Shown: positions 1-57,409 of the stretch, in pieces | How the letters are laid out: every line of letters begins with the position of its first letter | Numbering within the stretch: position 1 is the stretch's first letter | Virus record (IMG/VR): IMGVR_UViG_3300031977_002862 | Span: 27,845 to 91,844 of that record | Source: a virus | Length of the DNA stretch: 64,000 bases | Strand: one strand, 5' to 3' | The notes under the pieces: generated by a model | Databases searched by the model: none | The model's input: only the letters and a program-made list of their open reading frames with translations | What the model was told of the DNA's origin: nothing | Translations under genes and position numbers: made by a program

Positions 1-3000
1 TAGAATTAGAGAGGGGGTAGTTACAGAAGTAGGCGTAATCGCTCCAAGACCAAGAGTAAAGCTTGCATCCCCAGAAGTAACTGTTGCGCCCCCTGTGATA
101 CCATTATTTGTTGTAATGGCAACACCAGTAATATCGGCAGCACCAACAGTCTGGGAACCTCCAGAGCCCCCAGGAACAAAACCACCATCGGTCGTCGCGT
201 CTGTAATTGCAATCTCTCTTGCAGTTGTTCCGCTCCACTGATTTTCTGTGGCTACTCCTGTTCCTGCATAGCTTAATGCAGTTCGAAAATAGTAAGTATC
301 ATCTGCGGCTGCTAAAGTAACAGTATCAGTAGCAGTATCAAGAGTAATATATCCACTTGCGTCTATACAAGAACTTCCACCAAACTCTACGTTTGCTGTA
401 TAAGTTGTAAGAGTTACAAAAAGCTGTTCACCGCCTTCATAGCCGAGATCGATAATTTCTGTGTCTTCTGTTTGAACTACTTTATATTGAGTTGAAGTAG
501 GAGTTCCGCTTGTTATTCGAGTAAAAGTTCTTGTATAACTATCTCCTGAAACGGTTCCGTTTCCGCCGGCTGCAATACTTACTATGGTTGAACCATTAAA
601 AGAAGTATCATCGTCAACATCAAAAGTAATTGTTAAGCTTGTAGGGATTTTTGCGAGAGTACTTGCAGCACTATCTCCGTTATAACTATATCCTATCGCG
701 GAAAATCCTGCGAAAGCTTTTACTCGAACACGTACAGTTACATTTGAATTATCTACTGCTGTTGAAATCGTAGCATACTGGCCAGCAGTATTATGGTTTT
801 CTGCATAAGTTTCTACTTTTGTTTGAGAAACTTGAGCGATTTCTGTAAGAGCAGGAAATGAGAAGCCTCCGTCATTGCTGTCAAAATATACAGTGCCTTC
901 TGAAGAACGAAGTACTAAATTTCTTGCATTTACTAGGCCATCAGACTTTACAGAAAAAGTTCCAGAGGTAGGGGTTGATCCCGTATAAAATCTATAATCA
1001 CCGACTCCGGAAAGACTTGCTGAAGTAGCGCCGGTTCCGGCGGTAATCGTCGTGTCCGACGCTACAGCTCTTCCTGTTATACTTCCATCAACAATTAAGG
1101 AAGAATTTATTCGTAGAGTGTTTCCAAAACTCCATGCGGATCCATCATAAGACCATTCAGCCACTTTTGGGGGTGACGATCCATCATATACTAAAACAAT
1201 GTCTCCGTCAATAGGATTTCTTCCGGCAACGGCAAAAACTTCAGAGTTCGAAGGAGCGTCTAAATCATCGGGGGAGTTTGCGCTTCTTCTTACTCTCCAA
1301 TATCCTGGAATAGCGGAAGCGGCTTGAACTTCTTCAATTACTATATTGTCAACTAAAGTTGTGCCTGCTGCTCCGTTATATTGTACGAGAATGAGAGGTG
1401 CGATATATCTTACATTTGGATGTGCTACTGCAGGATCAAGAAAAGTTCTTGAATTATAGCCGCCAGCAGAAGCTCCGTGCCCTGAAAAATACCCTTCATA
1501 TAGAGTCCATGCGTCTGGAATATCTACTCCAACAGCAGCAAAATAGTGCTGACTGCTGTGGGTATTCGTACCATCTATATTTACAAGAGTTGTTTTGTCT
1601 GCTGCAAAACCTCCGAAACCAAAATAAGCAGCTCCACTTCCAGCGGTTTGTCGTGCAACAACTCTTACTCGATATATTCTTGAAGGATCAAAGGGAATTA
1701 ATTGCTTTGAAATCAACCATCTTTCATCGTTTCCAGAGTTATTCCCGATTGAGAGAGAAGTTCCTCCAGAATACGAAGTGGAGGAGAAAGTGATTTCTCC
1801 AGCTGCTGTATGGCTTGTCCAATAAGTAAGAAAATCGGCTGAATCTGCGTATTGTTCAAAATTATCGCGAAGTCGATCTACTACGATTGCTGTAGACTGA
1901 ATTGTTTCTCCGCCTTCATCCTTTAGGTCTACACCTGCAGTAGCTCCTACAGTCGCAGACGGAGAAGCTACAAGACTAAGAGGTATAGGAGCACCGAACA
2001 ATCCACCCGCAGCAATTTCGTCCGGAGAGCCCGCCGGTCTTGTTTCAAGCCAGCCTAAAGCTACATAACTATCGGCAGGAGTAAAATCTACCCAAGTAGA
2101 GTTGTTATCGTACTGCCACTGGGTTCCATTCAAGCGAGCAAACGCAACGTCCATCGCTGTACTTACAACAGTGAACGGATTACCTTTAGCCGTATCAAAT
2201 ACTATAAAGCCTTTAGTGTCTGTTTGGCTTGTTGCAAAAGTAATAGGATCTAACGCATTAAGTTGAACTGCGTCTACAGTTATTTTGGAACCATTCCAGA
2301 TAATAAATCCATCTGTGTTTAGCTGAGGGCTTCCTTCATTATCGCACCCAACAAGAGCGCCTTCTCCGTCATTGGCAGTGCCGTCAGAGCGTTTATTTAG
2401 TAAAAGAGCTAATCCTTGGCTTGCGTTATAACTATTTAGCAGGTCTGCGTCTGCGGGTTGCGAGGTGATGTTCGATCCCCAAGTAGCTCCAGCAGTAGCA
2501 CCGGCTTCAGCAACAGCATTTGTTATTTGAGTAGCATCAACTTGACCAGAACCACTTCCCGTATAGTTCAGAGTACCGTCAGAATTTATTTGAATGTCTT
2601 CATTAAATACGTTACCTGCTCCAGAACCTGTTAGAGCGACTCCTCCAATAGAAACTGTTCCTTTAAATCCTGCGCCTTCATCACTTGAATAAAAGAAAGG
2701 AGTTTGAATAATTCCATCGGTAAGGTCTATCGAAGAACCTGCCGAAGAAAAAGCATCGGGACTTCCTGTACCGCTATAGTTATCAGATTCAATAGAGCCC
2801 GTCGTAATATTTCCACCGTCAATAACAGTTTGACCGCTCGTGGACAGATTTGTGAAGGTTACAAGATTTGTAAAGCTTGCTGCTTTTAATGCGGTGCCAC
2901 CAAAAGTTAAAGTTTCACCACTATAGGTATCATTTCCAGAATTATATGTTCCGCTTTCAGATGCGGAAAATCCTATATACCAAAACTCTGCGTCCGGACT

Positions 3001-6000
3001 TCCACCTGTGTATGTTGGAGCATTATGGCTCCAATTAGAAAGAATTGTTCCGAATTCTCCTGTACCAAAATTCATCGTATTCGTGTCGGCACTTGTAGGA
3101 AGTGTAGTAGGTTGAGTGCTAGTTTTTACAGAGTAGAATAAATAGCCAGTTACAGTTCGAGTTCCTCGGGCACCCGTTGATCCCGTGTCTCCTTTACGAG
3201 AAATACTAAACCAAAACTGAATGGGATTGCCTGATGCAGTACTAAGATTTGAAGTGCCCCCTTCTTGATTAAAATTAAGCAGAGATACAGGAATCTTAAT
3301 TTTATTGGTAGTCTCTTCTATTGGAGAACCTGTAACTAAAAAGTTTACCCAACGATCTGAGGCTTCATACCAAGCAATTGTTGTTCCTGCTATAACTTGA
3401 TTGAGCAGAAAGTCTTTATTGTCTGTTCCATTAGTTTCGCTTCTATGAAAGAGTATATAATCAATATCTCCCGGAGTAGTAATATCGCTCCAACTTGTAG
3501 TTCCTTTATCTGGAGAAGCTGAATTTAAAAGAAGTGCATATCTTCCCTGACCAGCCGCCTCGCCGGTAGTATCCAAATCGTCATAGTTTAAAACAGTAGA
3601 AGCTGATGGTAGAGAATTTTCGCCATCTATTGCAAGAAGAGAAGGAGTGCTCCACTCTCCCTGAGCTATTGTATCAGTAGAAGAAGTTGAAGCAGCAGTA
3701 GCCTGAGATACCCATAAATATCTTCCGGTACCTGTACTCTGTATATCATCCGTCCAGCCATTTGCAGTTGTAAAAGAAATAGCGCCGCCCAAAAAAGTAT
3801 AGGTCGTGTTCCCTTCAGGTTTACCGCTATTTGATCCAGTACTTGGAGCAGTATCGGTAATAGTTCTTTGATATATAAATACTGAAGCAGTATTTAAACC
3901 ATCTCCACCATCCTCTGCTAATTTAACCGGAGCTGACCACTCAGGAGAACCTATATCGTCGGTGCTTCCGTTACCAGAAGCAGTTGCTGCTACAACATAT
4001 AAAGGATCGGAGCCTCCGGTAGGTTCTTTTTGCCACCCATCATCTAAAGTAGTGGTGGTTATTTTTCCCGTACTTAGGTTTACTGTTACAGGCCCGGGAT
4101 TATCTGAAGGAGCCGCTGCGCTTCTCTTATAAGCGTAGACGAGTGCATTTGAATTTCCGTCAGTTCTTACAGCATAAACCGAGCTTCCAGTCCAAGTAAT
4201 AGAAGCCGAAGTACTAGTTCTGGAACCTACAGCAAGGCCAACTCCTACATAAGAAGTTTCCCCATTTGCCAAAGTAGGGGGTGTAGTACTCCAATTTGTA
4301 GGAGCTGTTAGAGTATTAGTAGTAAAATTATAAGAGCCTCCAGTAAGACCAGCATTTGAAGTTTTTCTAAATACATATACTTCGGCTACAGCGTCTGCTT
4401 CGATTTGAAACGGGCTACCCCAGTCATAGTTTGTAGCTCCTACAGCTTTCTCACCCGTGCTGGCCCAAAGAGTATAAGGAGAACCATCATCTAAAAGTGT
4501 ATCGACTGCATTGGTTCTCCAGCCTACAGGTGTACCAGGAGTAGAGCTAGGAGTGTCTGGTTCACCGTCATTTCGCTTAAAGATTATATCTACACTAGCG
4601 CCTGTTTCTCCTGGAGATCCGTCTTCGCCCTCTACAGATTGAGCTAAAGATTGGATTTTTGTTAAACTAAAAGAAGTTCCATTAGCTCTCTTTCCCTCTA
4701 TAAGATAAGATACTGTAGCATTTGTAGCTGTCATATCATCATGAGGAGGGATAGTAGCGTAAGTACCCGAGTCAGTAACAGGGCTTCCTGGATCAATATT
4801 TACACCTGTAGAGGTTACTTTCCAAGTGCCATTTGAAGTTCCTACGCCGTCATAGGTAAGTTCTGTAGTACCTTCATAAACTCGAATAGTTGTTCCGGAG
4901 CCTGTATATGTAATCTGACTACCGCCTCCGGTGTTTGTAACCGGAAGAACATGGGAATCATTAGGCAATATAATAGTAAGAGCATCGGTTCCGTTTGCTC
5001 CCACAGTACCTTCCTGAATACCATAAATCGAAACAGTATCAAAAGAGTAGACTCCTCCGTCAGGGGATCCTGCGTCACTTTCCGCTACTTGAAGAGTATA
5101 TGAATGAACTTCGTTGGGCCCTGGTTCTCTTCTATCTGGAGATCCGGAATCAAAATCAGGAATATCATAAGTATTTTGAGAACCCCAAGCCCTTACCTCG
5201 ACCCCATCTTTTAAAAATCTATATATTGGAGAAGTATAGTTTGTGCCCGTTCCTGTAAGAGTAATAGTAGTTTCAGGGCTTTCATTACCATCAGCGTCGA
5301 ATAAAATTACATATTTATTTGCTGTAAGAGTTGCGGTTTTTCCTTCTGCTCCATCAGCTCCATCAGTAGATAATAGACTTGCAGCAACCCAATCACCACT
5401 ACCAATAGTTACAGTATCTGTTAAACTTTTTACATATTGCTGAACTATCCAAAGATATGCTCCTCCACTTGAAGGAATGCTGGTAGTCCAAGAATTAGAT
5501 GGAGCAGGATCAAGTGCGCCTGTACTAAAAGTATAGGTTACTTGATTATCGGGGGAACTAGGAGTGCTTCCAGAAGTAGTTCTACGATAAAGATTTATAA
5601 AAGCACTGTTAAACCTTCCAATAGTTGTTCCGGAAGCCTCAGTGCTATAATCGCTGTAGTAATCTCTTTGCTCCGAAGATCGAGTTGTTTGTACAGTTGT
5701 GCGAGTAAAGGCCCTTACCCAATAATAAAATGTTGTTCGAGTTTCTGGAAGAAGAATATCGATGTAGCTTCTTTCTAGCGTGGAAGATTGATCAGCGATT
5801 TTAACGGCTGTATTTACATTATTTGAAGTACTTCTCCAAATCTCATATCCATTTGCCTTTGCAACATTATCCCAAGTTACTGTAATCTGGTTAGTTTCCT
5901 CATTCGAAGTACCGGTTCCTGTTGCTGCAACATTCGTAGGCGCAGAAGGACGGCGAATAACCGCATCTACTTCAAGAGGTACATTGAAAGGGCTTGCTTT

Positions 6001-9000
6001 TGGAGCATCTATAAAATATATAGAGTCATCGTGCTCTGTAGCTACTACACTTACTAGACAATTTGTTTGATAAGTAAGGGATTGAATTCTGAAATACTTT
6101 CCGCTGTCCCAACCAAATCGAGGATATTTTACACGAATTAGTTCACCAGGACTCAATGCTAAACCAACAGGTCGAACTGTAAAAGAAATCTGGCGAGAAA
6201 ATCTTGAACGATTGAGGATCTGCTCAACAGCAAGTCGAGCATTGTAGTAGTTTGTAATTCCTTCGAGCTTGAAAGATCCTGAACGAACAACTCCTCGATC
6301 TTGCTTCAAATAATCTGAGTTAAAGAAAGATACGTTTCGACTGTTAAAATTATTCTGAGGGTCGATAATGCTTGCAGATAAAGAATTATACGCTTTCGAA
6401 AGTCCGTCGTCTTTAATCGAAAGAGAACCAATAATATCTTCTTGCTCAATGACTCGAACACTTGAGCCTACAGAAATCCACTCAATATCAAAATCATCTG
6501 CAGACGAAAGACCCAAATCTAATCGAAGACCCGTAATATAGCTGTCTTCCCAATCTGTTCCACCAGCAGTTAGATTTGACATATCCCACGAAGCAATCAC
6601 CCACTCATTTAAAACTGTGGGGTCAGAAATATCTTTTTGAAAAGAAGCCGATTCACCGTGAGAGTCGGTAGTGTAATAAGCAGCACCATCCCAACCAGTC
6701 CCTCCAGTTCTACGTATTCTTGCACGAATAATTAAGTTTTCAGAACCTTTGAAAGAAAGATTTGATTTTCTAAATACAGGATCGGAGCCACTTGAGTCAA
6801 GAGTTATATACTCTTCTTCTTGTGTAATTGAAGCCTGGCCATTTACTGTCCAACCCTCTGAAGAGTTCTGGAAATTCCAGAAAAGTTCTCCGTCAGCATC
6901 TCTCTTTGTCTCTACTGAAAGAGTGAACTTGCCGTCCTCAAATGCAAGTATTCCATTAAAGTGCTCAAGAATAACGCCAATAACATTAAAGACGGGCTGA
7001 GATGTATCAATTGATAAATTTCCCTGATGGCGAGTAACCCAACGCTGGTCGGGAGAGTCCCACCCAAGATACTTCCAATACTGTATAAAGTCGGAATCGT
7101 AGAGAGAATAATCTAAAACATTACCAGAGCCAGAGGCTACAGAAACACTTGTGCTGTCTCCGCCAACTTGAGTTAAGGTAAATGAAGAAATCTCAACAGC
7201 ATTTGTACTTATAGTTGTTTGCAAACCACTGGTTGTATTAAATCTATAAAGACTTGATCCAGCCTCCCAAATAATATCGTCTTGCAAGCGAGTACGGACT
7301 TTATTGAATTGATTTGTAAGTTTCCCAATACAGTCTGTAAAAGTAACTTTGAAACGATCTGGAGAACCACTCAATGCATCTTCAATAGTTTTAATAGTTC
7401 CTTGCCACTTAAAACCACCAGTAGGCTCATACTTAAACTTATCCCCTACTGCAAGAGTATGTCCGACACTGTCTACTTGTATTTCGACTGTAATATCTGA
7501 TCGAGTATCGCAAGTTCGGGCAGCTTGTAAAAAGCTATTAATATTTAACTTATCATCAGAAAGACCCGCCCCATAACGCTTACTCTTCATATAATCTAAA
7601 AGAATAAGTCCAAAGTTTGTAGTGGGCCGAACGTCTCTTCCTTCTTCGTTTCCGTATATTAGTACTTCATCTCCTGCTTCTGGAACTTCTCCATCGGCTA
7701 GATCAGTAGTAAGAGTTAGAATGCGAGTGGCTCCGTCGTAGTCTTTAATTACTTTAAGAGTTTCTATTATATTGCCATTAAAATCGGTTCTTCTGATTAA
7801 AACAGCTTTACCATTATAAGCATCATCAACAGAACTCGGGCTTCCAGTTGTAGAAAGTTTAATCTGATTCTTTATTGTTATATATGTAGTAGTAGAAGCA
7901 TTTCCTGTTACAGTACTTATATTATTTGTAGGAGTATCATCAAGGACAGTGTTAGTTTGATCTACAGTTACAGTAGTTGAAGAGGTTACCGGGTTTTCTT
8001 GATATGTTGGACTCTTAGGGTTTGAACCATCAAAACCATTAGCAAGAGGAATTGTTCTTTCTGTATTTACCGAGGCTCTAGAACTTCCAGTAGAGCTTTG
8101 AGCATCTCTTACGTTGCTTGTACTTGTTGTAGCATTTATGTCAGCAGTACCACTAGAATTTATTGCAGAAATTTCATCTTGAAGTTTTGTTTCAATAGTA
8201 AAGGCTGCATTCCCTTCTGTAAAATCATATGTTGCCATGGTCCAAGTATTTGAACCATCATCCATGTAGAATTTTTTAGCCTGCTGTAGAGAGATTTCTT
8301 GAGCCGCTGTTAAATCCCAACGAAATCTATAATTTGTATTTCCCTTCCCGTCCTGGTAAAACCACTTATCTATAATTTGAACATTTGAAGCAAGTGCAGT
8401 GTCATCAGAAGACTTTTTGATAGTTACTGTGTCGCCGAGAGAAAAATTAGTGTGGTTTTCACCACTTCCTACATGACCATAACTTCCGTCGTAGTTATAA
8501 GATTCTACAAGCTTTCCTTTTACTACGTAGTCTATATCTGGTACTGTAGTCTGGTCAGGTGTAATGGTGTGCTTAGAAACAGTATAAGCAGTATCAAGAA
8601 GTTTATGGTTTGCCCCCCAGTAATTAGTAGCTGGAGCAGATCCAAAATAATCATTCTGAAGTTTAAATTTTGTCCCGTTTGCAACACTAGATAAACGAGA
8701 AGATGCTTGTTGATCTTCTAAACCTGATTTAAACTCTATAACGGTGTCAGTAGGACTTGTAAAATTAATTCCGTAATCATGTACAAGACCTTTTTGTCCT
8801 ACAGGAACTCCGGAACTATATATTCCATTTACCAATCCATTGTAAACTTCATTTCTTTGTACGTAAACTCCAGAAGGAGCATTGAACACCCAAGAAACAA
8901 GCTCTTGTGCCGCTTGAGCATTTACTTCGGCCTCTGCTTCTATAGCTTCATAGTCCTCTACAGAAAGAGTTTGACTGCCGCTGTAAACCACTACGGAAGG

Positions 9001-10407: not shown

Positions 10408-11127
10408 TTAGGGTAGAGCCTCTTCTAAAGATAAACTGAACTGAAAAAGATTGTTCGTTCCAAGGGAGTATTCTTGAGTATCACCTTTTGGTATTACTCG
10501 AATTTTTGGTGCAGAAAAATTAACAGTAGCATTGTCCGCAACTGAATAAACAAGAGAAGGATTAAAATGAATAATTCTTTGATCCTCCGCGGGTTGAGTA
10601 GTTTCAAAATCTCCGTTAGTCTCAACACGAGTAACCATATATGCTTTTACATGGTTTGAGTTTGCTGAGTCTGTAATAGTAAATATGTCTCCTGGTTTTG
10701 GACTTCCACTTGCTCCAGTAAGGCCATCGATAGTCATTTTTGTAGCCCCAGAGTTTGTAGCACCGTTTACAGAGATTGTATTTGGAACCGCTAAATAAGT
10801 TGAAAATGTGGAGTCTTGTGTATCCTCATACTGGGGAAGAACTACGAAAAAAGGATTGAGTCTTCCCTGTCTCGACAAAAGAAAAGTATTAACTGGCTCG
10901 AACTCTGCTCGTGTAAGTGGATTATAAGAAATATCAAGAGACCAATGCTGCTTTGCCTGAGAACGAGTAACTACTCGTCCGCCGTTTGTTCGGGACATCA
11001 TCGTAGGCTGATTCGAAGTAAATTTTACAGAAGCAAAACCAGGACCGGCAGTACCAGTACTATTATTCTGCTTTCCTGAAGGAAGAATCTTTCGATCAGG
11101 ATCTGGTAATATATTCATAAAAGCCAT
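10408..11127 (-). CDS. Distal tail protein (Dit, T5 pb9-like)
   Basis: LPDP...PGFASV...ISYNPLT...LEEAL motifs; lies between tape measure and hub as in T5. Confidence 0.85.
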   Translation of the reverse strand: MAFMNILPDPDRKILPSGKQNNSTGTAGPGFASVKFTSNQPTMMSRTNGGRVVTRSQAKQHWSLDISYNPLTRAEFEPVNTFLLSRQGRLNPFFVVLPQYEDTQDSTFSTYLAVPNTISVNGATNSGATKMTIDGLTGASGSPKPGDIFTITDSANSNHVKAYMVTRVETNGDFETTQPAEDQRIIHFNPSLVYSVADNATVNFSAPKIRVIPKGDTQEYSLGTNNLFQFSLSLEEALP

Positions 11128-17373: not shown

Positions 17374-18585
17374 TTATGCCTTATAAATAATCGTGGCTTC
17401 GTTGGTTGAATCAACATTGCCATCTGCTACCTGACCGTGGAAAGCGACTTCCAGCGTAAGCAAATCTTCAACATTAATTACAGGCACTTCGAGGTGTGCT
17501 GTGGGAAGGTCGAAAGCAATACGAGGAGTATTTGTGGTTTCGCCTCCAATATTTACAGTCATATCGAATACGTTTCTGACTGTTGAAGTATCGCTCACTA
17601 AGTCTGCAAAAAGTTCTCCTGATTTACTCTGGTTGGTATCATTATCAAGATAACAGGTTAGAGATCCTGAAATTGAACGAGCACCAGTAATATTTGCAAG
17701 AGGAGCATTTACAACACCGAGTTCCTCCGGAGTGAGGTAGGTGATGTTATTTTCCATAGAAATACTTCCACCGGTAAGAACAATACTGTAAACATCTTGA
17801 ATATTATCGGGAGAAGTTGATTCATTCAAACCAGCATCAGGTGAGCCAATAAACTTATCGTTTCTTACGAGAGAAAGTGTTGAGATTCGGTTACGAATAA
17901 AGTTTGTTGTATCAGTAAGACCATTTGAAATTACTTTATCAGGAGAAGTGTTACCAAGCTCATCAGGTTGAGTTAGTCCTTCATCTGAAATTTGCTTTGC
18001 AAAACCGCTCCACTGAAGAGTTGCAATTCCATCGATATCAAAATCCATCGTAATAGAGTTTACGACGGCACTCTGAAGTTTATAGTACTGTTTATTGTCC
18101 CCATCTTCAAAAGCAAACCAAATATCCCAGTTATCGGGCATCGATGAAACATTTGACTGGCTAAAATCAAATGTGTTTGTTGAATCAAGAGCGGGACTTT
18201 GATCTACTAAACTATTTACAGCGTTGCCGCCCTTTTTAAATACTTCGTTATTTGTATCCCACGTATCAGCACCTACAAACATGGCCCATAAAGACTCTTC
18301 TACAGCGTGACATTTTGAGTCATTATCCGGACTAGAAGTTGAGTCAAAAGGTCGAGCATAAGTACTCATTGACCATTCTACAGGGGCCAAACTGTCATTG
18401 AAGAGCAGTCTTGCTCGTCGTGAAGTTGTTCCTGCTTCATTGATCGTAATTTCTGAAGAATTAATTGATTGCGTAAAAGAAAAGCCATCAAGTACAGAAA
18501 GTTTCCATGATTGTACATGATTTCCTGAACTGGCGTCTCTCAACGAAACGTATACTTCTGCATTTCTTGTAAATTGTAATGCCAT
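17374..18585 (-). CDS. Major tail tube protein (T5 pb6-like)
   Basis: VLDGFSFTQ, FNDSLAPVEWS.STYARP, NNITYLTPEELG motifs. Confidence 0.9.
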   Translation of the reverse strand: MALQFTRNAEVYVSLRDASSGNHVQSWKLSVLDGFSFTQSINSSEITINEAGTTSRRARLLFNDSLAPVEWSMSTYARPFDSTSSPDNDSKCHAVEESLWAMFVGADTWDTNNEVFKKGGNAVNSLVDQSPALDSTNTFDFSQSNVSSMPDNWDIWFAFEDGDNKQYYKLQSAVVNSITMDFDIDGIATLQWSGFAKQISDEGLTQPDELGNTSPDKVISNGLTDTTNFIRNRISTLSLVRNDKFIGSPDAGLNESTSPDNIQDVYSIVLTGGSISMENNITYLTPEELGVVNAPLANITGARSISGSLTCYLDNDTNQSKSGELFADLVSDTSTVRNVFDMTVNIGGETTNTPRIAFDLPTAHLEVPVINVEDLLTLEVAFHGQVADGNVDSTNEATIIYKA

Positions 18586-50668: not shown

Positions 50669-50693
50669 TGTTTTCTCCAGTGTTTAAGTGCAT

Positions 50694-50789: not shown

Positions 50790-50898
50790 ATCCCCTGAAT
50801 TGAGTGTCGGTATATCCGCGCTTAATTCAATTCCGTATAAACGAATGTTAGTGCTTCCGAAAGGGGCAAGTTATTCTTTCTTAAAAGGAGAAGAACCT

Positions 50899-51413: not shown

Positions 51414-51420
51414 TCACGGG

Positions 51421-51450: not shown

Positions 51451-51451
51451 T

Positions 51452-52087
51452 ATGACAGTAAAAATACCTTTAAAATATCGAAACAAGCCGGCTATTCTTT
51501 TCGCTACAGGACCGACAATGCTAGAAGCCGTTCCTATAGTAGAAGAGTATAAGGATGATTACATTATCTTTGGGTGTAATGATTCTTATAAAGTAATTCC
51601 TTGGTTAGACGAACACTACGCTTGCGATGATCGTTGGTGGAGATTTAATGGGCCTGATTTTCGTAAAAGGTGTCCTAATCTGTCTTCTTGGACTCAATCG
51701 AAAGAAGGGGCAAAAAGTTGGAACATTCAATTAGTTCAAGGATACCATAGAGACCTTATGAGTATAGATTCTTCCTATATTCACTTCGGGTCTAATTCTG
51801 GGTTTCAAATGCTAAATATAGCTTTTTTAATGGGCTGTTCCAAGTTTATTTTGGTTGGCTATGATATGCAGCATATAAATAAAAAAACGCATTTTTTTGG
51901 TGACCATCCAGGAGGCATGTCCAACAGCAGTCCCTATGGAAAATTTATAAATTATTATTCTAAAATACAGCCTGAGATTAGAGAATTGATTGTTAATTGT
52001 AGTCCTAATTCTGCTTTAACGGTTTTTAGAAAAAATACATTGAGAGAAGAGCTTGAGAATAATAAGTCTTTCAAAACAAATTCTTAA
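51452..52087 (+). CDS. Maf/DUF115-like putative glycosyltransferase
   Basis: ATGPT, GCND, NSGFQMLNIA..MG...ILVGYDM, HFF. Confidence 0.65.
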   Translation: MTVKIPLKYRNKPAILFATGPTMLEAVPIVEEYKDDYIIFGCNDSYKVIPWLDEHYACDDRWWRFNGPDFRKRCPNLSSWTQSKEGAKSWNIQLVQGYHRDLMSIDSSYIHFGSNSGFQMLNIAFLMGCSKFILVGYDMQHINKKTHFFGDHPGGMSNSSPYGKFINYYSKIQPEIRELIVNCSPNSALTVFRKNTLREELENNKSFKTNS

Positions 52088-52715
52088 TAAAGAGCTCGAT
52101 CAAGTAGTGGCCTCGAAGGTATATAGAAGCTTAAATAATCCTGTAACAAATTTAATTTCTGGGTTGTATCTTCGAAAAAAAGCGGGAAGAGTTTTTCTAG
52201 GGTTAAAAGAGCATTCAGAAGAAAAAATAGAAGAATTCTTTAGTTTAATAAAAGATCAAAAGTATTTACTGTCTTTACCGGAGAACTCTCTTGGAAGACA
52301 TATATACAACCATGGAGGCTATGAAACTTTCAAAGAGTTTTATACAAATAAAGAAGTGTATTTCTATACTGGAAAAAATAAAAAACTTCTTTTTTATATT
52401 AATAATTTTATGAATCATGTAAAGATTTCACACGATTATTGGCATATAATGTTCGGCTACGGAAGAAGTTATGTTGATGAAGGGTGTATACAGGCCATAA
52501 CCTTTAGTGCTTTAAAATCTTTTGGGCCTCTATATATTTGTTTACTAATATGTATATCAGATATGCTCGAAACCAAAAATTTAGTTGGAACTAAAAGAAT
52601 ATATAAAGCATATAAAAGGGCTCAGAAAACTAAAAGGGAATTCTTTTTTAAAAAGTTCGATAACTTATTGGAAGAAGATATTAATGAAATAAGGAAAAGG
52701 TACGGCATAGTATGA
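52053..52715 (+). CDS. Coq4-like protein
   Basis: L.LPENSLG..., HDYWH..FGY....DEG. Confidence 0.6.
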   Translation: MRIISLSKQILNKELDQVVASKVYRSLNNPVTNLISGLYLRKKAGRVFLGLKEHSEEKIEEFFSLIKDQKYLLSLPENSLGRHIYNHGGYETFKEFYTNKEVYFYTGKNKKLLFYINNFMNHVKISHDYWHIMFGYGRSYVDEGCIQAITFSALKSFGPLYICLLICISDMLETKNLVGTKRIYKAYKRAQKTKREFFFKKFDNLLEEDINEIRKRYGIV

Positions 52716-53350
52716 TAAAAATATTTGTAGGTACTTCTGCAAATGGAGAAGATGATATTGCGGAAAAAACTCTTAAATATTCTTTAGAAAAGCATTCTTC
52801 AGAAGAATTAGAAATTGTTTTTATGCGAAACAGAAAAGACGGCTTTATGGGTCTTTTTGACTCTTCTGGCTGGGCTACGCCTTTTACTAATCTTCGTTGG
52901 GTAATTCCAGAGTATTGCAATTTTTCTGGAAGAGCTATTTATATGGATGTAGATCAATTAAACTTACGAGATATTTCCGAACTCTACAATATAGATTTAC
53001 AAGATAAACCCTTTGCTTCTAGGGATAATCGTCTTTGTGTGATGGTAATGGACTGCGAAAAAATGCAGACGGAGTTGAAATCTGCACAACATATAAAACA
53101 AACTCCTACATACGGTAGAGAAATTTATTGGAACATAGTTAAAAAAAGTAAACATTTTGATCCTAGATGGAATTGTTTAGATGGAGAAGATAGAGAGATA
53201 AATGATATCTGGCATCTTCATTTCACCACTATGCCTACACAGCCTTGGAAACCTTCTTGGTATAGAGGAGCTCACAGAGAACACCCAAGACAGGATTTAG
53301 TTAATTTATGGAAGCAGTATAGTTTGGAGGCTATAAATGGCACTAATTAG
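52712..53350 (+). CDS. GT-A (GT8-like) glycosyltransferase
   Basis: IFVG, TPF...RW.IP, AIYMDVD, WNCLD, LHFT. Confidence 0.8.
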   Translation: MIKIFVGTSANGEDDIAEKTLKYSLEKHSSEELEIVFMRNRKDGFMGLFDSSGWATPFTNLRWVIPEYCNFSGRAIYMDVDQLNLRDISELYNIDLQDKPFASRDNRLCVMVMDCEKMQTELKSAQHIKQTPTYGREIYWNIVKKSKHFDPRWNCLDGEDREINDIWHLHFTTMPTQPWKPSWYRGAHREHPRQDLVNLWKQYSLEAINGTN

Positions 53351-53897
53351 TGAAAAATACTCTAACTTATTGAAAGAATACCATCAAGAAAGAGAAAGTT
53401 TTGGAGAGTCAAAGAATCCTGAGTCCTATTATTTATTATACTACATAAAGAAAATGTATTTAAATTCTTTTTTAGATTATGGGTGTGGGAAAGGCGGTTT
53501 AATTAAAGAATTAAAAGATTTATATCCTACTATGGAAGTAGAAGGCTATGATCCTGGAACGGTAGAATTTGAAAAACACCCAGAAAATCATTATGATTTT
53601 GTAAGTAGTATAGATGTACTAGAACACATAGAGCCAGAACATATAGACGAAGTGCTACTAGATATAAAAAATCTTTCTTTAAACTATATATACCTTCTAA
53701 TATGTCACTCACCAGCAAAAAAGAAATTACCAGATGGAAGAAATGCTCATATACTGCAAAAACCTTTGGATTGGTGGTTAAAGAAGTTAGAATTAACTAT
53801 GCCAGACTTCGGATTTGCGGAGGTTACACAAATCGTTTCAGATAGGGTAGATCTGCCACGTAAGATAGATAGTAGAATTTTACTAAAAAGAAAATGA
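53337..53897 (+). CDS. Class I SAM methyltransferase
   Basis: LDYGCGKG, GYDP, DVLEHIEP. Confidence 0.85.
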   Translation: MALISEKYSNLLKEYHQERESFGESKNPESYYLLYYIKKMYLNSFLDYGCGKGGLIKELKDLYPTMEVEGYDPGTVEFEKHPENHYDFVSSIDVLEHIEPEHIDEVLLDIKNLSLNYIYLLICHSPAKKKLPDGRNAHILQKPLDWWLKKLELTMPDFGFAEVTQIVSDRVDLPRKIDSRILLKRK

Positions 53898-54499
53898 ATA
53901 TAGCTATTATTGGACACGGCCCTAGTATGCTTTTAGAAAAAAGGGCAAGTTTTATAGATTCTTTTGATTTTGTTGTCAGACAAAAGAAAAGAGGAATAGA
54001 ACTAATGCAAGAGCACCCTGAATTTTTCGGAAACAAAACAAATGCAGTGTGCGGGTCTGTAGGCCAGTATAGAGCAATAAACTACCCTAATACTGAAAAG
54101 TGGGTATTCATAGATTCACGATATGAGAATGCAAATGTCTCTAATCTTGTAGGTGCCCGGGTAGATAAAGATCTTTGCAACAAGTGGAACCAAAAATTTA
54201 GAGAGAAAAGAACAGATTATTCTCCTCCAGACGAAAGGATCGTGTCCTCTAAAAGTTCTGATTCTTTTGGCCATAGGCATTTATCTTCAGGTTTTCACAC
54301 AATACTTTATGCGTGTAAACTGTTAAGTCCGAAAAGTATAACACTGTTTGGTTTTGACAGCCTACAAAACGGAGATTTTACTTGGTCATTAACAAGGGGC
54401 GAACAGTGGAAGCAGTACCCAGATCATAGATGGGACATAGAGTTTCTTATGATAGAAGAAGTAAAAAAACATTTCGGAATTAATATGGAGTTTAAATAA
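53894..54499 (+). CDS. Sialyltransferase-like (GT29/GT42-type fold) protein
   Basis: IIGHGPS...IDSFDFVVR, LSSGF, LFGFD, H.W..E. Confidence 0.65.
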   Translation: MNIAIIGHGPSMLLEKRASFIDSFDFVVRQKKRGIELMQEHPEFFGNKTNAVCGSVGQYRAINYPNTEKWVFIDSRYENANVSNLVGARVDKDLCNKWNQKFREKRTDYSPPDERIVSSKSSDSFGHRHLSSGFHTILYACKLLSPKSITLFGFDSLQNGDFTWSLTRGEQWKQYPDHRWDIEFLMIEEVKKHFGINMEFK

Positions 54500-55047
54500 T
54501 GAATAGATATACAGAGCTTACTACTTTGGTAAGAAATGAGAAACCAAAACATATTCTAGAGATAGGTACCTGGAACGGGAACAGGGCTATAGCTTTATGC
54601 AATATCAATAATTCTAGCTATACTGGATTTGATTTATTTGAGGAAGCTACGAAAGAAACTGATGAAGTAGAAAAAAATGTTAAAAAACATAACTCAAGAG
54701 ATTCAGTGCTGCGAAAAATAAGAGGTAATGGAATTGTTTGTGAATTAATACAAGGTAATACAAATATAACCTTACCCGAATACGTAAAAATTAATTCACC
54801 TAAGTTTGATTTTGCTTTTATAGATGGAGGGCACTCTGTAGAGACTATTGCCAATGACTGGAAGTATGTTAAAGAATTAATGCTACCCAATAGTTTAGTA
54901 GTTTTTGACGATTATTATGAAAATTGCTCAGATTTACATATTTGGGGAGCTAATAAGGTACTTGAAGGTTTGGACTATTCACTAGGAGAGTGTAGAGATC
55001 CTGTGGTTACAGGAGAATTTGTAAGGCTCGCTACAGTAAGGGTATGA
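54499..55047 (+). CDS. Class I SAM methyltransferase (Methyltransf_24-like)
   Basis: LEIGTWNG, GFDLF, FIDGGHS, VFDDY. Confidence 0.85.
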   Translation: MNRYTELTTLVRNEKPKHILEIGTWNGNRAIALCNINNSSYTGFDLFEEATKETDEVEKNVKKHNSRDSVLRKIRGNGIVCELIQGNTNITLPEYVKINSPKFDFAFIDGGHSVETIANDWKYVKELMLPNSLVVFDDYYENCSDLHIWGANKVLEGLDYSLGECRDPVVTGEFVRLATVRV

Positions 55048-55700
55048 GAGTTTTTATCGGGTATGACTCAAGGGAAGATATAGCATATAGAGTTGCTAAA
55101 GCTTCTATCTTAAAATATAACTCTTCTTTAGAGGTTCTGCCTATTATAAGAAAAGATTTAATAGAAGAAGGTATTTACTCTGTGGAAGACTCTTTAGGTT
55201 CTACAGAGTTCACAATTACAAGATTTCTAACTCCCTACTTGAGTAATTATACTGGAATATCTGTCTTTATGGATTGTGACGTATTAGTACAAACAGATTT
55301 GGAAGACATTTTAGTAGAGTGTGACTTATCATTACCAGTAAATTGTGTAAAACATGAGTACACACCTAAAACGGACTTAAAGATGGACAATAGAACACAG
55401 TATGTTTATCCTAGAAAAAATTGGTCTTCTGTTATGGTTTTTAATTGCGAGCATAAATTAATTAGGAAAAACCTTACTGTTGAGTCTGTGAATTCTTCTA
55501 CTCCAAAATATTTACATAGAATGGGATGGGCTGAAGAAAATATAGGAGAGCTACACCATACGTGGAACTATTTAGTGGGATATTATAGTGATATTGAAAA
55601 ACCTAATATACTTCACTACACTGATGGGGGACCTTGGTTTGAGAACTATAAAAACTGTGAATTTTCGGAAAACTGGAATAGTGAGTTAAAAAATGTATAA
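55044..55700 (+). CDS. GT-A (GT8-like) glycosyltransferase
   Basis: FIGYDSRE, STEFT.TRF, FMDCD, YPRKNWSS, HYTDGGPW. Confidence 0.85.
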   Translation: MRVFIGYDSREDIAYRVAKASILKYNSSLEVLPIIRKDLIEEGIYSVEDSLGSTEFTITRFLTPYLSNYTGISVFMDCDVLVQTDLEDILVECDLSLPVNCVKHEYTPKTDLKMDNRTQYVYPRKNWSSVMVFNCEHKLIRKNLTVESVNSSTPKYLHRMGWAEENIGELHHTWNYLVGYYSDIEKPNILHYTDGGPWFENYKNCEFSENWNSELKNV

Positions 55701-56415
55701 TGTATATACCACTTTTGCCCCAAAAGATTATCTTCTCTACGGAAAAAACTGTATAGAGACTTTTATAGAATATTGGCCAGAAGATATTAAACTGTACGTT
55801 TACTATGAAGGAAAGCCTGAATTAGAGAATGATAGGGTAGTTTGGTTGGATTTTAATACGGAATGTTCTGACCAATTAGTGTTTGCTGAATATGCAAAAA
55901 ACTATCCACAAGATAATTTTTATAAAGCGGCTACTAGATTCTCCTATAAAGCTTATACTATAATCAATCACCTAGAAAAAAGACTAAATAGATACAGCAT
56001 TTGGCTAGATGGCGATTGCATAGCAACTAAAAAAATACCTTTAGATTGGTTAAGTAAAGTTAAACGTGATAATTGTTGTGTTTCTACATTATTACGAAAA
56101 ACAAGAGCTGCAGAATCTGGATTTATCTTAGTAGATAATGAACATGAAGATTTTAATTTATTTTTACAAAAATACTCAGAATTTTATAGGGAGTATAAAC
56201 TTTTCAAGCTTCCTGAATGGCATGATGGGTATATACTAAGCCACGTAATAGGTGAGTTTAAGATAAAAACTTTTAACCTTACCCCTCCTAACAATACTAG
56301 ACAAGCAGAATACCATCCTTTTGTTCGGGGAATATTAGGAAAATATTTGGACCATTTAAAAGGCCCAAGAAAAAATATCGGTTTTTCTAAAGAAAGACAG
56401 GATGTTTGGAATTGA
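55693..56415 (+). CDS. Nucleotide-diphospho-sugar transferase
   Basis: RFSYK, IWLDGD (DxD), ESGF, EWHD, HLKG. Confidence 0.75.
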   Translation: MYNVYTTFAPKDYLLYGKNCIETFIEYWPEDIKLYVYYEGKPELENDRVVWLDFNTECSDQLVFAEYAKNYPQDNFYKAATRFSYKAYTIINHLEKRLNRYSIWLDGDCIATKKIPLDWLSKVKRDNCCVSTLLRKTRAAESGFILVDNEHEDFNLFLQKYSEFYREYKLFKLPEWHDGYILSHVIGEFKIKTFNLTPPNNTRQAEYHPFVRGILGKYLDHLKGPRKNIGFSKERQDVWN

Positions 56416-57053
56416 AAAATATAAAAGGTTGGTTTTTTCCGGATAACGAGAAACATTTTATAAAATTTGTGGACTTTTTTCCGGAAACTAGCTACCAACA
56501 AAATATCTTTTCTCACGCCTTATTTAAAACTAAAAACAAATCTTGTTTTGTTGATATTGGAGCTAATTTAGGGTTACACACAGTTAGAGCAGCTTCTTGC
56601 TTTGATTATGTTCATTCTTTTGAGCCTGCGAGAGTTAATTACGAAGCTTTATCCAAAAATTCCCAAAATTTTACAAATATAAAAACCTATAATGTAGGCT
56701 TGGGAGGGAAGGAGTCCCTAGGTTATTTAAAAATACCAAAAAATTCTAATAATCTGGGGAGTTTTTCTTTTAAAGATTTTAATAACATGAAAGAACACGA
56801 ACTCTCTATAGAGGAAGTAACTATTAAATCTTTAGATTCTTATAAATTGAGTCCAGATTTAATTAAAATAGACGCACAGGGGTTCGAGGTGCAAATACTG
56901 CAAGGGTCGATAGATACTATACGCAGACATTCTCCAGTTATACTGATTGAAATGCTGAAGTATAACTCAAAGAAGATCGAAAAATTACTTACCGAATATT
57001 CGTATGTACTAGATACAAAAATTAAAAAAGATGGAGTATGGATTAAAAAATGA
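56406..57053 (+). CDS. FkbM-family methyltransferase
   Basis: VDIGANLG, SFEP, IKIDAQGFE. Confidence 0.88.
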   Translation: MELKNIKGWFFPDNEKHFIKFVDFFPETSYQQNIFSHALFKTKNKSCFVDIGANLGLHTVRAASCFDYVHSFEPARVNYEALSKNSQNFTNIKTYNVGLGGKESLGYLKIPKNSNNLGSFSFKDFNNMKEHELSIEEVTIKSLDSYKLSPDLIKIDAQGFEVQILQGSIDTIRRHSPVILIEMLKYNSKKIEKLLTEYSYVLDTKIKKDGVWIKK

Positions 57054-57409
57054 AATCAGGAAAAGTTTGGGGAACAACACAATTAATTGAGCATAACAAC
57101 TCATTAGAGTTTCATAGAATTGAATTTCAAGAAGGCTTTTGTTGTTCCGAACATTATCACAAAACAAAATGGAATGGATTTTTTGTAGAATCCGGCGAGA
57201 TGATGGTAAAGACTTGGCAAGAAGAGCCAAAAGAAGAAACGCCCCATCTCTGCGATCAAACAATTCTTCGTGCGGGAGACTATTACAAAGTCGAGCCTGG
57301 AAAATGGCATCAATTTTTAGGCATTAAATCAGGAGTTGCTTTTGAGCTGTATTGGGCAGAGTTTGATGGCAATGACATTATAAGACGAACACAAGGAAAA
57401 AAATTATGA
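57050..57409 (+). CDS. Cupin-domain protein (sugar isomerase-like)
   Basis: GKVWG, SEHYH..K...F, PG.WHQF. Confidence 0.7.
   Translation: MKSGKVWGTTQLIEHNNSLEFHRIEFQEGFCCSEHYHKTKWNGFFVESGEMMVKTWQEEPKEETPHLCDQTILRAGDYYKVEPGKWHQFLGIKSGVAFELYWAEFDGNDIIRRTQGKKL

What the first reader, a model, noticed from the sequence alone, without database searches (positions are those of the whole stretch)
1..57409. Recurrent (G)-S-P-(D) motif across virion proteins plus a dedicated glycosylation island: candidate sequon-directed virion glycosylation system
Seen: by hand I counted at least 15 in-frame GSP tripeptides in the giant tail protein (Pro codons near 2023, 2326, 2758, 2995, 3322, 3943, 4411, 4477, 4612, 4780, 5062, 5137, 7360, 7837, 9670) and about a dozen other xSP, many followed by D. 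They use mixed synonymous codons, so this is a protein-level motif and not a DNA repeat. The same motif occurs in the major tail tube (TSSPDN, QSPA, TSPDK, GSPDA, TSPDN), capsid (GTSPND, LGSPA), head adaptor (EGSPAD), Dit (SGSPK), putative RBP and the 42382 protein (GGSPS). It looks scarce in the metabolic and replication proteins. The same genome carries an AT-rich block of about five glycosyltransferases, three methyltransferases and a cupin (51452-57409). Known: Maf-type enzymes O-glycosylate flagellin Ser/Thr, and some mycobacteriophages glycosylate capsid and tail proteins. Inference: the SP serines are acceptor sites for a phage-built, methylated O-glycan coat, which could shield against proteases or grazers or alter adsorption.
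Basis: partly seen in the sequence, partly recalled or inferred. Interest (0 to 1): 0.9.

Follow-up and report, generated by a model that had tools for sequence, protein, structure and literature searches.

The report
Ser-Pro excess on phage tail proteins
An uncultured marine T5-like phage has about twice as many Ser-Pro pairs as chance predicts in its exposed tail proteins and also carries a cluster of soluble sugar-transferase genes, so its particle may be sugar-coated at Ser-Pro sites, but no chemistry or strong comparative evidence yet links the two.

Summary
All 15 listed GSP sites exist. In the giant tail protein, GSP is the most over-represented tripeptide (15 seen, 1.3 expected). Across the virion proteins SP ranks 2nd of 346 dipeptides (69 vs 38). 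Non-virion proteins show no excess (35 vs 33).

The excess depends on order and residue (PS 37/38, TP 41/39). It uses 18 codon pairs and mostly lies outside internal repeats. It is not virion-wide: it sits in the tail-tip and fibre proteins and in disordered, hypervariable loops of the T5 pb6-like tail tube.

The island is real. It has a Maf-like protein (best solved match 5MU5), a GT29-like protein, three GT8/GT-A-like proteins, three methyltransferases and a cupin. All lack membrane helices.

A complete relative with the same Maf-like/GT8 pair has an even stronger SP excess (135 vs 62). Three relatives without the island have none. However, the closest relatives by terminase also have none and their island status is unknown, the motif context differs between the two positive genomes, and some SPs are plainly structural.

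Virion O-glycosylation at Ser-Pro is a coherent but unproven reading (about 0.35). This scan has noted similar motif-plus-island pairs, with other motifs, in many other aquatic phages.

The parts
1..10407 (-). Giant tail-tip protein (Tal/pb3-like position, directly after Dit). The window holds the N-terminal 3469 of 4794 aa. It is the main carrier of the GSP(D) motif.
   Evidence: ORF. SP 28/13.3 and GSP 15/1.3. Few internal repeats, and the GSPs mostly lie outside them. No Pfam family. Modules are shared with about 1900 large tail proteins that, pooled, have no SP excess.
10408..11127 (-). Distal tail protein (Dit), with one GSP.
   Evidence: phrog_1302, E = 1e-24. SP 1/1.6.
17374..18585 (-). 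Major tail tube protein with the T5 pb6 fold. Its five SPs (four as SP-D/N) lie in four hypervariable loops.
   Evidence: phrog_3575. Foldseek match to T5/DT57C tail tube, E = 1e-17. SP[DN] 4 vs 0.28. The loops are the variable parts of an alignment that is otherwise about 70% identical. Four of the five SPs lie in segments with pLDDT < 50. All 5 SPs are kept in a 92%-identical homologue whose flanking residues are only 63% identical.
20503..21111 (-). Head-tail adaptor, SP 3 vs 0.7.
   Evidence: phrog_442.
21175..23235 (-). Prohead protease fused to the major capsid protein; GSP 2 vs 0.08.
   Evidence: phrog_80 and phrog_617/267.
27806..29293 (-). 495-aa protein of unknown family upstream of TerS; SP 4 vs 1.7. 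In relative G001 the gene at the same position (511 aa, not detectably homologous) has SP 20 vs 4.4.
51452..52087 (+). Maf-like / DUF115 (MptE-like) sialyltransferase-fold protein. It consists of the catalytic core only (211 aa).
   Evidence: PF01973, 37.8 bits against a cut-off of 34.6. phrog_4603. AF2 model with pLDDT 87.5. Best solved match is Maf 5MU5 (E = 1.8e-4, TMq 0.61), followed by GT29 sialyltransferases.
52053..52715 (+). Coq4-like protein of unknown role in the island.
   Evidence: PF05019, 28 bits against a cut-off of 22.9. No homologue in G001.
52712..53350 (+). GT8-like glycosyltransferase. With the Maf-like gene it forms the conserved core pair of the island.
   Evidence: PF01501. 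75% identical in G001 and 68-73% in seven further viral contigs, each with a Maf-like gene just upstream.
53337..53897 (+). SAM methyltransferase (Methyltransf_23).
53894..54499 (+). GT29-like (sialyltransferase family) protein.
   Evidence: Protein-atlas features score 0.95 and structure TM 0.73 to viral GT29 clusters. Viral GT29+GT8 and GT29+methyltransferase fusions exist. This is a lead, not an alignment-based assignment.
54499..55047 (+). SAM methyltransferase (Methyltransf_24).
55044..55700 (+). Second GT8-like protein, a distant paralogue of 52712-53350.
   Evidence: phrog_28018. 23% identity to the GT8-like protein of G001, E = 8e-6.
55693..56415 (+). GT-A-like nucleotide-sugar transferase.
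   Evidence: Protein atlas: nearest named clusters are GT8 / Nucleotid_trans. Structure TM is 0.89 to a domain of 764-aa viral proteins that also carry PF01973 and Methyltransf_24.
56406..57053 (+). FkbM-family methyltransferase, a family commonly associated with sugar O-methylation.
   Evidence: PF05050; TIGR01444.
57050..57409 (+). Small cupin, with a weak match to the WbuC family.
   Evidence: PF07883; TIGR04366 below its cut-off.

Best explanation
The phage makes a set of soluble cytoplasmic glycan-building enzymes from the AT-rich island at 51452-57409: a Maf-like protein, a GT29-like protein, three GT8/GT-A-like transferases, three methyltransferases and a cupin. These enzymes build a short, methylated O-glycan on serines followed by proline. 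The serines lie in exposed loops of the tail tube, the giant tail-tip protein and some fibre, adaptor and capsid sites. Modification would happen before or during assembly.

The most likely initiating enzyme is the Maf-like protein, acting as Maf does on flagellin, possibly with a host-supplied CMP-activated sugar. The GT8/GT-A-like enzymes would extend the glycan and the methyltransferases would cap it.

Shown: the motif excess, its placement, the enzyme families, and a limited co-occurrence. Inferred: that the serines are modified at all, which enzyme starts the glycan, what the donor is, and what the coat is for (shielding, or altered adsorption).
For: 1. The SP excess is real and specific. 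Virion proteins have 69 vs 37.7 (rank 2 of 346); non-virion proteins have 35 vs 32.8. PS is 37/38 and TP 41/39, so local S/P-rich composition cannot explain it. GSP is 25 vs 9.3 even after allowing for the dipeptide frequencies.

2. The excess is not fixed by the fold. 150 homologues of residues 1700-2850 of the giant protein have pooled SP 1203 vs 1188 expected, with median z = -0.4. At most of this phage's GSP sites the aligned homologues do not have SP; for example 0 of 161 and 0 of 271.

3. In the tail tube the SPs sit in four hypervariable loops, which are the low-confidence parts of the model. They are kept while their flanks change: 5/5 kept against 63% flank identity at 92% overall identity, and 4/5 kept against 35% flank identity.

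4. Proteins that are internal or not exposed (tape measure, portal, terminase, chaperone) show no excess.

5. Relative G001 is complete, 106 kb and syntenic. It carries the Maf-like/GT8 pair (53% and 75% identity) in a larger sugar island, and its virion proteins have SP 135 vs 61.7 (rank 1 of 344; 91 vs 48 without the repeat protein), while its non-virion proteins have z = 0.4. Two more island-positive contigs show weaker excess in the few tail proteins they hold: G051 24/16.6, and G055 7/1.8.

6. Relatives whose syntenic locus is covered and has no island show none: G002 z = 1.2, G003 z = -1.3, G081 z = -0.9.

7. The Maf-like protein's best solved match is a flagellin O-glycosyltransferase. 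No island protein has a membrane helix, and no flippase, polymerase or priming transferase is present, which fits a soluble acceptor.

8. Viral fusion proteins join these same modules: DUF115+MT24+GT-A, GT29+GT8 and GT29+MT. In Pseudomonas phage D3 a DUF115 homologue lies between the capsid and adaptor genes, near a methyltransferase.
Against: - There is no chemistry. No described O-glycosyltransferase uses a Ser-Pro sequon, and it is unusual that Thr-Pro is not enriched.
- The island-positive and island-negative genomes fall into two clades, so there is roughly one independent contrast.
- The three closest relatives by TerL (90-91% identity) have no SP excess (21/21.1, 25/20.8, 20/21.6). Their contigs do not reach the island locus.
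- The context differs between genomes: G at -1 and D at +1 here, V/T/A at -1 and T/A/S/V at +1 in G001.
- In G001 the core proteins from Dit to TerL have no excess (14/14.6). Its 1223-aa tail protein carries SPs inside tandem repeats of the 'EWSSPV' type, which look structural. The SP-rich homologues P0126 and P0196 are likewise repeat-driven.
- G062, a close relative with a variant island (two Maf-like genes, GT8 at 51% identity), shows 16/15.8 in its distal tail proteins.
- Phages of about 76-158 kb with a GT8-like gene but no Maf-like gene show no excess. Phage D3 shows none either.
- The island is on the early/middle strand, about 22 kb (some 30 genes) from the nearest gene of the virion module (TerS side), and no donor-synthesis genes for a CMP-sugar were found in it.
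Confidence: 0.35

Rival explanations
1. The Ser-Pro excess is a structural or evolutionary property of fast-evolving, exchangeable tail-fibre modules and surface loops. It could be a rigid Ser-Pro turn or cap that stabilises exposed loops or beta-sandwich edges. On this reading it has nothing to do with the island. The island would do what is usually proposed for glycan genes in marine phages: remodel host surface glycans during infection, for example to stop progeny or competitors adsorbing to the infected cell.
For: - Some SPs are clearly structural: they recur at fixed positions in tandem repeat domains in G001, P0126 and P0196.
- One tail-tube SP (the 'VSPDD' site) is conserved in nearly all homologues, with an invariant Pro.
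- The strong signal lies in mosaic tail-tip and fibre proteins rather than in core virion proteins.
- SP-rich tail proteins also occur on T4-like contigs (L227, L234).
- The trait is patchy among the closest relatives.
- The motif context differs between G000 and G001.
- The island lies among early/middle genes, is AT-rich, and varies in content between close relatives, as host-interaction islands do.
Against: - Homologous modules in about 140 of 150 other phages have no SP excess, and they lack SP at this phage's sites. The folds therefore do not require it.
- A purely structural turn motif would be expected to use Thr, Asp or Asn as well, but only Ser-Pro is enriched.
- The island has no membrane, flippase, polymerase or lipid-carrier components, although peripheral transferases acting on host intermediates cannot be excluded.
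- This reading leaves unexplained why the two strongly SP-rich genomes are the two that carry the Maf-like/GT8 pair.
Confidence: 0.3
2. Ser-Pro marks a different modification or interaction that does not depend on the island. Candidates are a host-encoded protein glycosylation or phosphorylation system, or proline hydroxylation followed by glycosylation, as in Ser-Hyp glycomodules.
For: The selection on SP in exposed loops is real. G001's island holds a prolyl-4-hydroxylase-type 2OG-Fe(II) oxygenase, PF13640. The likely hosts are marine bacteria, many of which glycosylate flagellins (general knowledge, not tested here).
Against: No P4H-type oxygenase was found in this phage's own island; only a 119-aa cupin is present. 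General bacterial O-glycosylation systems act in the periplasm, which virion proteins do not enter. Nothing in the data points to a particular host enzyme.
Confidence: 0.1
3. The island glycosylates phage DNA (hypermodified bases) to evade restriction, and the SP motif is unrelated.
For: Soluble phage glycosyltransferases are classic DNA modifiers, and multi-sugar DNA glycans are known (Pyle et al. 2024, cited in PMC12619734). The island lies near nucleotide-metabolism genes such as ThyX.
Against: The thymidylate synthase is ThyX (PF02511), not a ThyA-type hydroxymethylase. No TET/JBP dioxygenase, DNA cytosine methyltransferase or hydroxymethylase was found in the replication module or island. 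Not every small ORF was scanned.
Confidence: 0.07

Closest known systems
Maf flagellin O-glycosyltransferases (PF01973; solved structure 5MU5, Magnetospirillum magneticum)
   Same: The fold of the catalytic core matches (Foldseek E = 1.8e-4, TMq 0.61) and the Pfam hit is above its cut-off. The enzyme is cytoplasmic and soluble. The proposed acceptor is Ser on a protein that later polymerises into an extracellular filament or tube.
   Different: The phage protein has only 211 aa, whereas the solved Maf chain has 632 residues; from general knowledge Mafs carry extra N- and C-terminal domains beside the core, which the phage protein lacks. Mafs have no sequon and modify both Ser and Thr. No CMP-nonulosonate pathway is present in the island. 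The acceptor would be virion proteins rather than flagellin.
Mycobacteriophage virion glycosylation (Freeman et al. 2023, Cell Host Microbe; known here only through its citation in PMC12619734, as the paper is not held)
   Same: Phage-encoded soluble glycosyltransferases are proposed to put O-glycans on capsid and tail tube subunits.
   Different: There the glycans sit at the C-termini of capsid and tail tube subunits (as quoted in PMC12619734). Here the candidate sites are internal loops and the C-termini are conserved and plain. The glycosyltransferase genes here are about 22 kb (some 30 genes) from the virion module, on the other strand. The enzyme families and host type differ, and no chemistry exists.
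Chlorovirus PBCV-1 capsid glycosylation (virus-encoded soluble glycosyltransferases and methyltransferases acting at non-canonical sequons; from general knowledge)
   Same: The virus itself encodes a multi-enzyme, methylating, cytoplasmic glycan pathway for its structural protein, at a virus-specific motif.
   Different: That system is N-linked, the virus is eukaryotic, the enzymes are unrelated, and the chemistry is proven there.
Ser-Pro / Ser-Hyp glycomodules of plant and algal cell-wall proteins and mucin-type O-GalNAc sites, which favour Pro near the acceptor (from general knowledge)
   Same: A Ser next to a Pro serves as the acceptor context for O-glycans on exposed, extended segments.
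   Different: These are eukaryotic secretory-pathway enzymes. No homologues of them were identified here, apart from a P4H-type oxygenase in relative G001 only.

Membership tests
Maf-type protein O-glycosyltransferase (PF01973 / MAF_flag10) | Pfam PF01973 match above the gathering score | tested here: met
   37.8 bits against a cut-off of 34.6, but only residues 8-48 align. The G001 orthologue scores below the cut-off at 24.9 bits.
Maf-type protein O-glycosyltransferase (PF01973 / MAF_flag10) | Fold of the central Maf / sialyltransferase-like domain | tested here: met
   AF2 model with pLDDT 87.5. The top PDB match is 5MU5 Maf (E = 1.8e-4, prob 1.00, TMq 0.61), followed by GT29 sialyltransferases.
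Maf-type protein O-glycosyltransferase (PF01973 / MAF_flag10) | Full multi-domain architecture with flanking domains that bind flagellin | tested here: not met
   The protein has 211 aa and aligns to a fraction of the 632-residue Maf chain (TMt 0.23).
Maf-type protein O-glycosyltransferase (PF01973 / MAF_flag10) | Accompanying CMP-nonulosonic acid biosynthesis genes | tested here: not met
   No NeuB/PseI-type synthase or CMP-transferase was found in the ten island proteins. The host might supply the donor.
Maf-type protein O-glycosyltransferase (PF01973 / MAF_flag10) | Transfers sugar to Ser/Thr of a protein acceptor | not testable with these tools
   Needs enzymology or mass spectrometry.
Mycobacteriophage-type virion glycosylation | Glycans on C-terminal segments of capsid and tail tube subunits | tested here: not met
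   The tail tube C-terminus is conserved and has no Ser/Thr-rich extension. The candidate sites are internal loops.
Mycobacteriophage-type virion glycosylation | Glycosyltransferase genes within or next to the structural operon | tested here: not met
   The island is on the + strand at 51.4-57.4 kb. The virion module is on the - strand and ends near 29.3 kb.
Mycobacteriophage-type virion glycosylation | Chemically demonstrated glycans on virions | not testable with these tools
   The phage is uncultured and no proteomic data were available.
Sequon-directed protein glycosylation (generic) | Short acceptor motif over-represented on substrates, beyond composition and local clustering | tested here: met
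   SP 69/37.7 against PS 37/38; GSP 25 against 9.3 (Markov expectation); no excess in non-virion proteins.
Sequon-directed protein glycosylation (generic) | The motif travels with the enzymes across genomes | tested here: inconclusive
   Island-positive: G000 z = 5.1, G001 z = 9.3, G051 z = 1.8, G055 z = 3.8 (one protein). Island-negative: G002 1.2, G003 -1.3, G081 -0.9. The two groups are separate clades. The variant-island contig G062 has z = 0.0. The closest relatives, G093-95, have z near 0 and unknown island status.
Phage DNA glycosylation systems | An enzyme that makes a hydroxymethyl- or otherwise activated base (ThyA-type hydroxymethylase, TET/JBP) | tested here: not met
   The thymidylate synthase is ThyX only, and the replication module is ordinary. 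The scan of small ORFs was incomplete.
Host O-antigen / LPS seroconversion modules | Membrane components (Gtr-type, Wzx/Wzy, priming transferase) | tested here: not met
   No island protein has a convincing transmembrane helix. The highest 19-residue hydropathy values are 1.66 (the Coq4-like protein) and 1.51 (the Maf-like protein); all others are at or below 1.16. There are no such Pfam families.
T5-like siphophage (Demerecviridae-like) | pb6-type duplicated tail tube protein and T5-like tail gene order | tested here: met
   Foldseek match to T5 and DT57C tail tube, E = 1e-17. 30-31% identity to tail tube proteins of Vibrio T5-like phages. PHROG annotation of the module.

The most novel reading that the evidence does not exclude
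Marine T5-like phages coat their tail tube and tail-tip proteins with a phage-built, methylated O-glycan attached to the serine of Ser-Pro motifs. The glycan would be started by a minimal Maf-like (sialyltransferase-fold) enzyme. This would be the first sequon-like, phage-encoded virion glycosylation system outside mycobacteriophages, and the first protein O-glycosylation directed by Ser-Pro in the bacterial world.
Probability: 0.3. Interest if true: 0.8.

Novelty: new variant of a known kind. Interest (0 to 1): 0.55.

Why it matters
Virion glycosylation has been shown chemically only for some mycobacteriophages. If abundant marine siphophages also coat their particles, using a simple and readable acceptor motif, that would bear on three things:
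- how long virions last in seawater and how they interact with hosts, grazers and particles;
- what the very common but unexplained glycosyltransferase/methyltransferase islands of aquatic phages are for;
- whether a compact soluble toolkit exists for putting glycans on chosen loops of proteins.

Even if the link to the island fails, a lineage-specific, order-specific Ser-Pro excess on exposed virion surfaces is a selection signal that still needs an explanation.

Tried and rejected
Explanations tested and rejected:
- Chance or overall composition: shuffles reject it.
- Local S/P-rich composition: PS, TP and PT are not enriched.
- A DNA repeat or a single codon pair: 18 codon pairs are used.
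- Internal repeat domains in the giant protein: only a few roughly 90-aa repeats exist, and the GSPs mostly lie outside them.
- A known Pfam domain explaining the motif: there is no family in the giant protein or in G001's non-repetitive SP-rich proteins.
- A property of the shared folds: 150 homologues show no pooled excess.

Attempts to broaden the co-occurrence test:
- Eighty IMG/VR loci around tail tube homologues are almost all fragments with z near 0.
- GT8-like homologues in phages of about 76-158 kb without a Maf-like gene show no SP excess.
- Pseudomonas phage D3, which has a DUF115 gene in its head module, shows no SP excess (19/15.4).
- The SP-rich homologues P0126, P0228 and P0269 could not be placed on contigs long enough to judge the island.
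- P0121 turned out to be G001's own protein.
- The closest relatives by TerL were fetched, but their contigs stop short of the island locus.

Other dead ends:
The 84-100 kb ENA/Logan contigs that carry SP-rich or SP-poor tail tube variants could therefore not be read.
- No cultured relative carries the GT8-like gene, and there is no close DNA relative among deposited phages.
- PDB sequence searches for the two core enzymes gave nothing useful.
- The DNA-modification reading of the island found no supporting genes.
- No complex prediction was run; an enzyme-substrate pair is a poor use of that test.


Full report
**What the window is.** The window is bases 27845-91844 of a 91,844-bp virus record. 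It has no close DNA relative among deposited phages.

The minus-strand block from 29.3 kb down to 1 is a T5-like virion module. In order it holds TerS, TerL, an HNH gene, portal, a protease-capsid fusion, adaptor, a p143-like protein, tail terminator, tail tube, a tube-initiator-like protein, chaperone, tape measure, Dit and a giant tail-tip protein. The tail tube model matches T5 and DT57C pb6 (Foldseek E = 1e-17). It is 30-31% identical to the tail tube proteins of Vibrio T5-like phages.

The giant protein runs off the window. In the genome it is 4794 aa and is followed by three further fibre-sized proteins. The replication genes are ordinary: a DnaB-like helicase, primase, PolA, helicases, FEN and RNR.

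**Checking the observation.** Every one of the 15 listed GSP sites is there, at the stated Pro codons.

In the window part of the giant protein:
- GSP is the most over-represented of all tripeptides (15 vs 1.3 expected).
- SP is 28 vs 13.3 and GSPD 6 vs 0.09.
- TP is not enriched (15 vs 14.5).

An unbiased scan of all dipeptides over all virion-module proteins puts SP second of 346 (69 vs 37.7, z = 5.1), just behind GS. In non-virion proteins SP is 35 vs 32.8.

The most important control is orientation. PS is 37 vs 38, TP 41 vs 39 and PT 45 vs 39. Co-clustering of Ser and Pro in loops therefore cannot explain the excess. GSP (25) also exceeds what the GS and SP frequencies predict (9.3). Eighteen codon pairs encode the 69 SPs. 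The giant protein has few internal repeats, and the GSPs mostly lie outside them.

The excess is not uniform. The tape measure, portal, terminase, chaperone and tube-initiator proteins have none. The core set from Dit to TerL has 20 vs 12.3. 'Virion-wide' is therefore too strong. The signal sits in the tail-tip protein, one fibre, the tail tube loops and a few adaptor and capsid sites.

**The tail tube.** Metagenomic homologues are about 70% identical overall, except in four hypervariable loops. The SPs of this phage and of many homologues lie in those loops, with varying flanks and in varying numbers, from 1 to 6.

Four of the five SPs fall in segments of the AF2 model with pLDDT below 50. 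Against a 92%-identical homologue all five SPs are kept, while the six flanking residues around each are only 63% identical. Against a 76%-identical homologue four of five are kept with 35% flank identity. One SP (the 'VSPDD' site) is nearly universal and probably structural.

Across 176 homologues, loop SP is twice the loop-composition expectation. PS (1.5 times) and PA (2 times) are also raised, so those loops are partly just S/P/A-rich. These counts are not phylogenetically independent.

**Is the motif fold-determined?** Residues 1700-2850 of the giant protein share modules with about 1900 proteins. The best 150 have pooled SP 1203 vs 1188 expected and a median z of -0.4.

At most of this phage's GSP sites the aligned homologues have something else: 0 of 161, 0 of 271 and 19 of 137 keep SP. 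The excess is therefore lineage-specific. A few homologues are SP-rich, but P0126 and P0196 owe that to tandem repeat domains with fixed SPs.

**The island.** GC drops to 0.32-0.35. The ten genes are:
- a Maf-like / DUF115 protein: PF01973 above its cut-off, phrog_4603, and an AF2 model whose best solved match is Maf 5MU5, followed by GT29 sialyltransferases
- a Coq4-like protein
- a GT8-like protein
- a Methyltransf_23 methyltransferase
- a GT29-like protein
- a Methyltransf_24 methyltransferase
- a second GT8-like protein
- a GT-A-like protein
- an FkbM methyltransferase
- a cupin

None has a convincing membrane helix. There is no flippase, polymerase or priming transferase. Viral proteins exist that fuse DUF115+MT24+GT-A, GT29+GT8 and GT29+MT, so these modules work together. 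The neighbouring thymidylate synthase is ThyX, not a hydroxymethylase.

**Relatives.** G001 (IMG/VR, 106 kb) is complete and circularly permuted, because its giant protein wraps around the ends. It is syntenic with this phage. At the same locus it carries the Maf-like gene (53% identity) and the GT8-like gene (75%). These are followed by two GT2s, methyltransferases, an FnlA/B/C-like trio for a 6-deoxy-hexosamine, a dehydrogenase and a P4H-type oxygenase.

Its virion proteins have SP 135 vs 61.7 (rank 1 of 344) and PS 63 vs 62. Without the repeat protein the figure is 91 vs 48. Its non-virion proteins have z = 0.4. Two non-repetitive proteins without any Pfam family stand out: 812 aa with 20 vs 5.0, and 511 aa with 20 vs 4.4.

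G002, G003 and G081 cover the syntenic locus and have no island. They show no SP excess and, if anything, a deficit in their giant proteins.

The Maf-like/GT8 pair recurs on several further viral contigs. The two island-positive contigs that hold some tail genes show weak excess: G051 24/16.6, and G055 7/1.8 in one partial protein.

Four observations cut the other way:
- G062 has a variant island and shows 16/15.8.
- Phages of about 76-158 kb with only a GT8-like homologue show nothing.
- Phage D3 shows nothing.
- The three closest relatives by TerL (90-91%) have no excess at all, and G096 (84%) has only a partial one. Their contigs end before the island locus, so they neither support nor refute the link. 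They do show that the trait is patchy within the clade.

The preferred context also differs: G-S-P-D here, V/T/A-S-P-T/A/S in G001.

**Reading.** Two unusual features coexist. One is a specific Ser-Pro excess on exposed virion surfaces that is not required by the folds. The other is a soluble glycan-building island whose core enzyme has the fold of the only bacterial family known to O-glycosylate a filament subunit in the cytoplasm.

Glycosylation of the SP serines explains both features and fits the limited co-occurrence. I rate it the single best explanation, at about 0.35.

The main rival, at about 0.30, is that SP is a structural habit of mosaic tail modules and loops, and that the island serves another purpose such as remodelling host surface glycans. 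In its favour are the repeat-borne SPs, the concentration of the signal in fibre proteins, the patchiness among close relatives, and the island's early/middle genomic position.

A different modification of SP (0.10) and DNA glycosylation by the island (0.07) are less likely.

**Context from the scan.** Earlier notes on this genome record the same motif and the same island. Notes on another genome describe what appears to be a G001-like island. More than 130 notes elsewhere report other short motifs together with glycosyltransferase islands in aquatic phages. [S/T]-[G/A]-S, a motif reported there, is also enriched here (59 vs 37). This recurrence may point to a general phenomenon. It may equally reflect a general tendency of Gly/Ser-rich virion proteins to yield enriched short words. 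It is not independent evidence.

**Limits.** The Freeman et al. paper is not held and is cited only through PMC12619734. The GT29-like and GT-A-like assignments rest on the protein atlas and are leads. That the tail tube loops face outwards is inferred from model confidence and from general knowledge of tail tube proteins; it was not measured.

Noticed in passing
L199 (Pseudomonas phage D3, NC_002484.2) 5790-6409: The DUF115/Maf-like homologue of D3 lies between the major head protein and the head-tail adaptor. Its open frame, starting with the conserved GPS motif, extends upstream of the annotated orf7 and overlaps orf6.5 in another frame. A methyltransferase (orf13) sits in the same morphogenesis module.
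   Followed up: partly
L100 (G001 50001-66500) 12530-13249: The sugar island of relative G001 contains a prolyl-4-hydroxylase-type 2OG-Fe(II) oxygenase (PF13640) next to an FnlA/FnlB/FnlC-like trio. This is notable given the Ser-Pro motif, but this phage has no counterpart.
   Followed up: partly
G093, G094 and G095 (loci L320-L325), e.g. G093 7675-10388: The closest relatives by terminase carry two tandem tail tube paralogues (437 and 462 aa, 61-68% identical to the single tail tube protein here).
   Followed up: no
window 21175-23235 (-): The prohead protease and major capsid protein are fused in one 686-aa ORF. The fusion is conserved in all relatives examined.
   Followed up: no
window 50042-51288 and 57534-58106: The island is flanked by ThyX, an Hsp20 small heat-shock protein and a peroxiredoxin. 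The peroxiredoxin is about 67% identical at the DNA level to cyanophage peroxiredoxin genes.
   Followed up: partly
L227 9370-16992 and L234 (T4-like baseplate contigs): Tail proteins that share modules with the giant protein are also SP-rich on T4-like myovirus contigs (24/8.8, 16/5.8, 10/3.5, 9/3.7). One of them prefers [D/N]-[D/N]-S-P. The contigs are too short to tell whether a sugar island is present.
   Followed up: partly
all virion-module proteins of the genome: GS is the single most over-represented dipeptide (155 vs 100), and [S/T]-[G/A]-S is also enriched (59 vs 37). This is the motif that other notes of this scan report in other aquatic phages.
   Followed up: partly
G001 (loci L224, L225): The IMG/VR record of G001 is listed as 'linear', but its 1709-aa tail protein wraps from the end of the contig to its start. 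The contig is therefore a complete, circularly permuted genome.
   Followed up: yes
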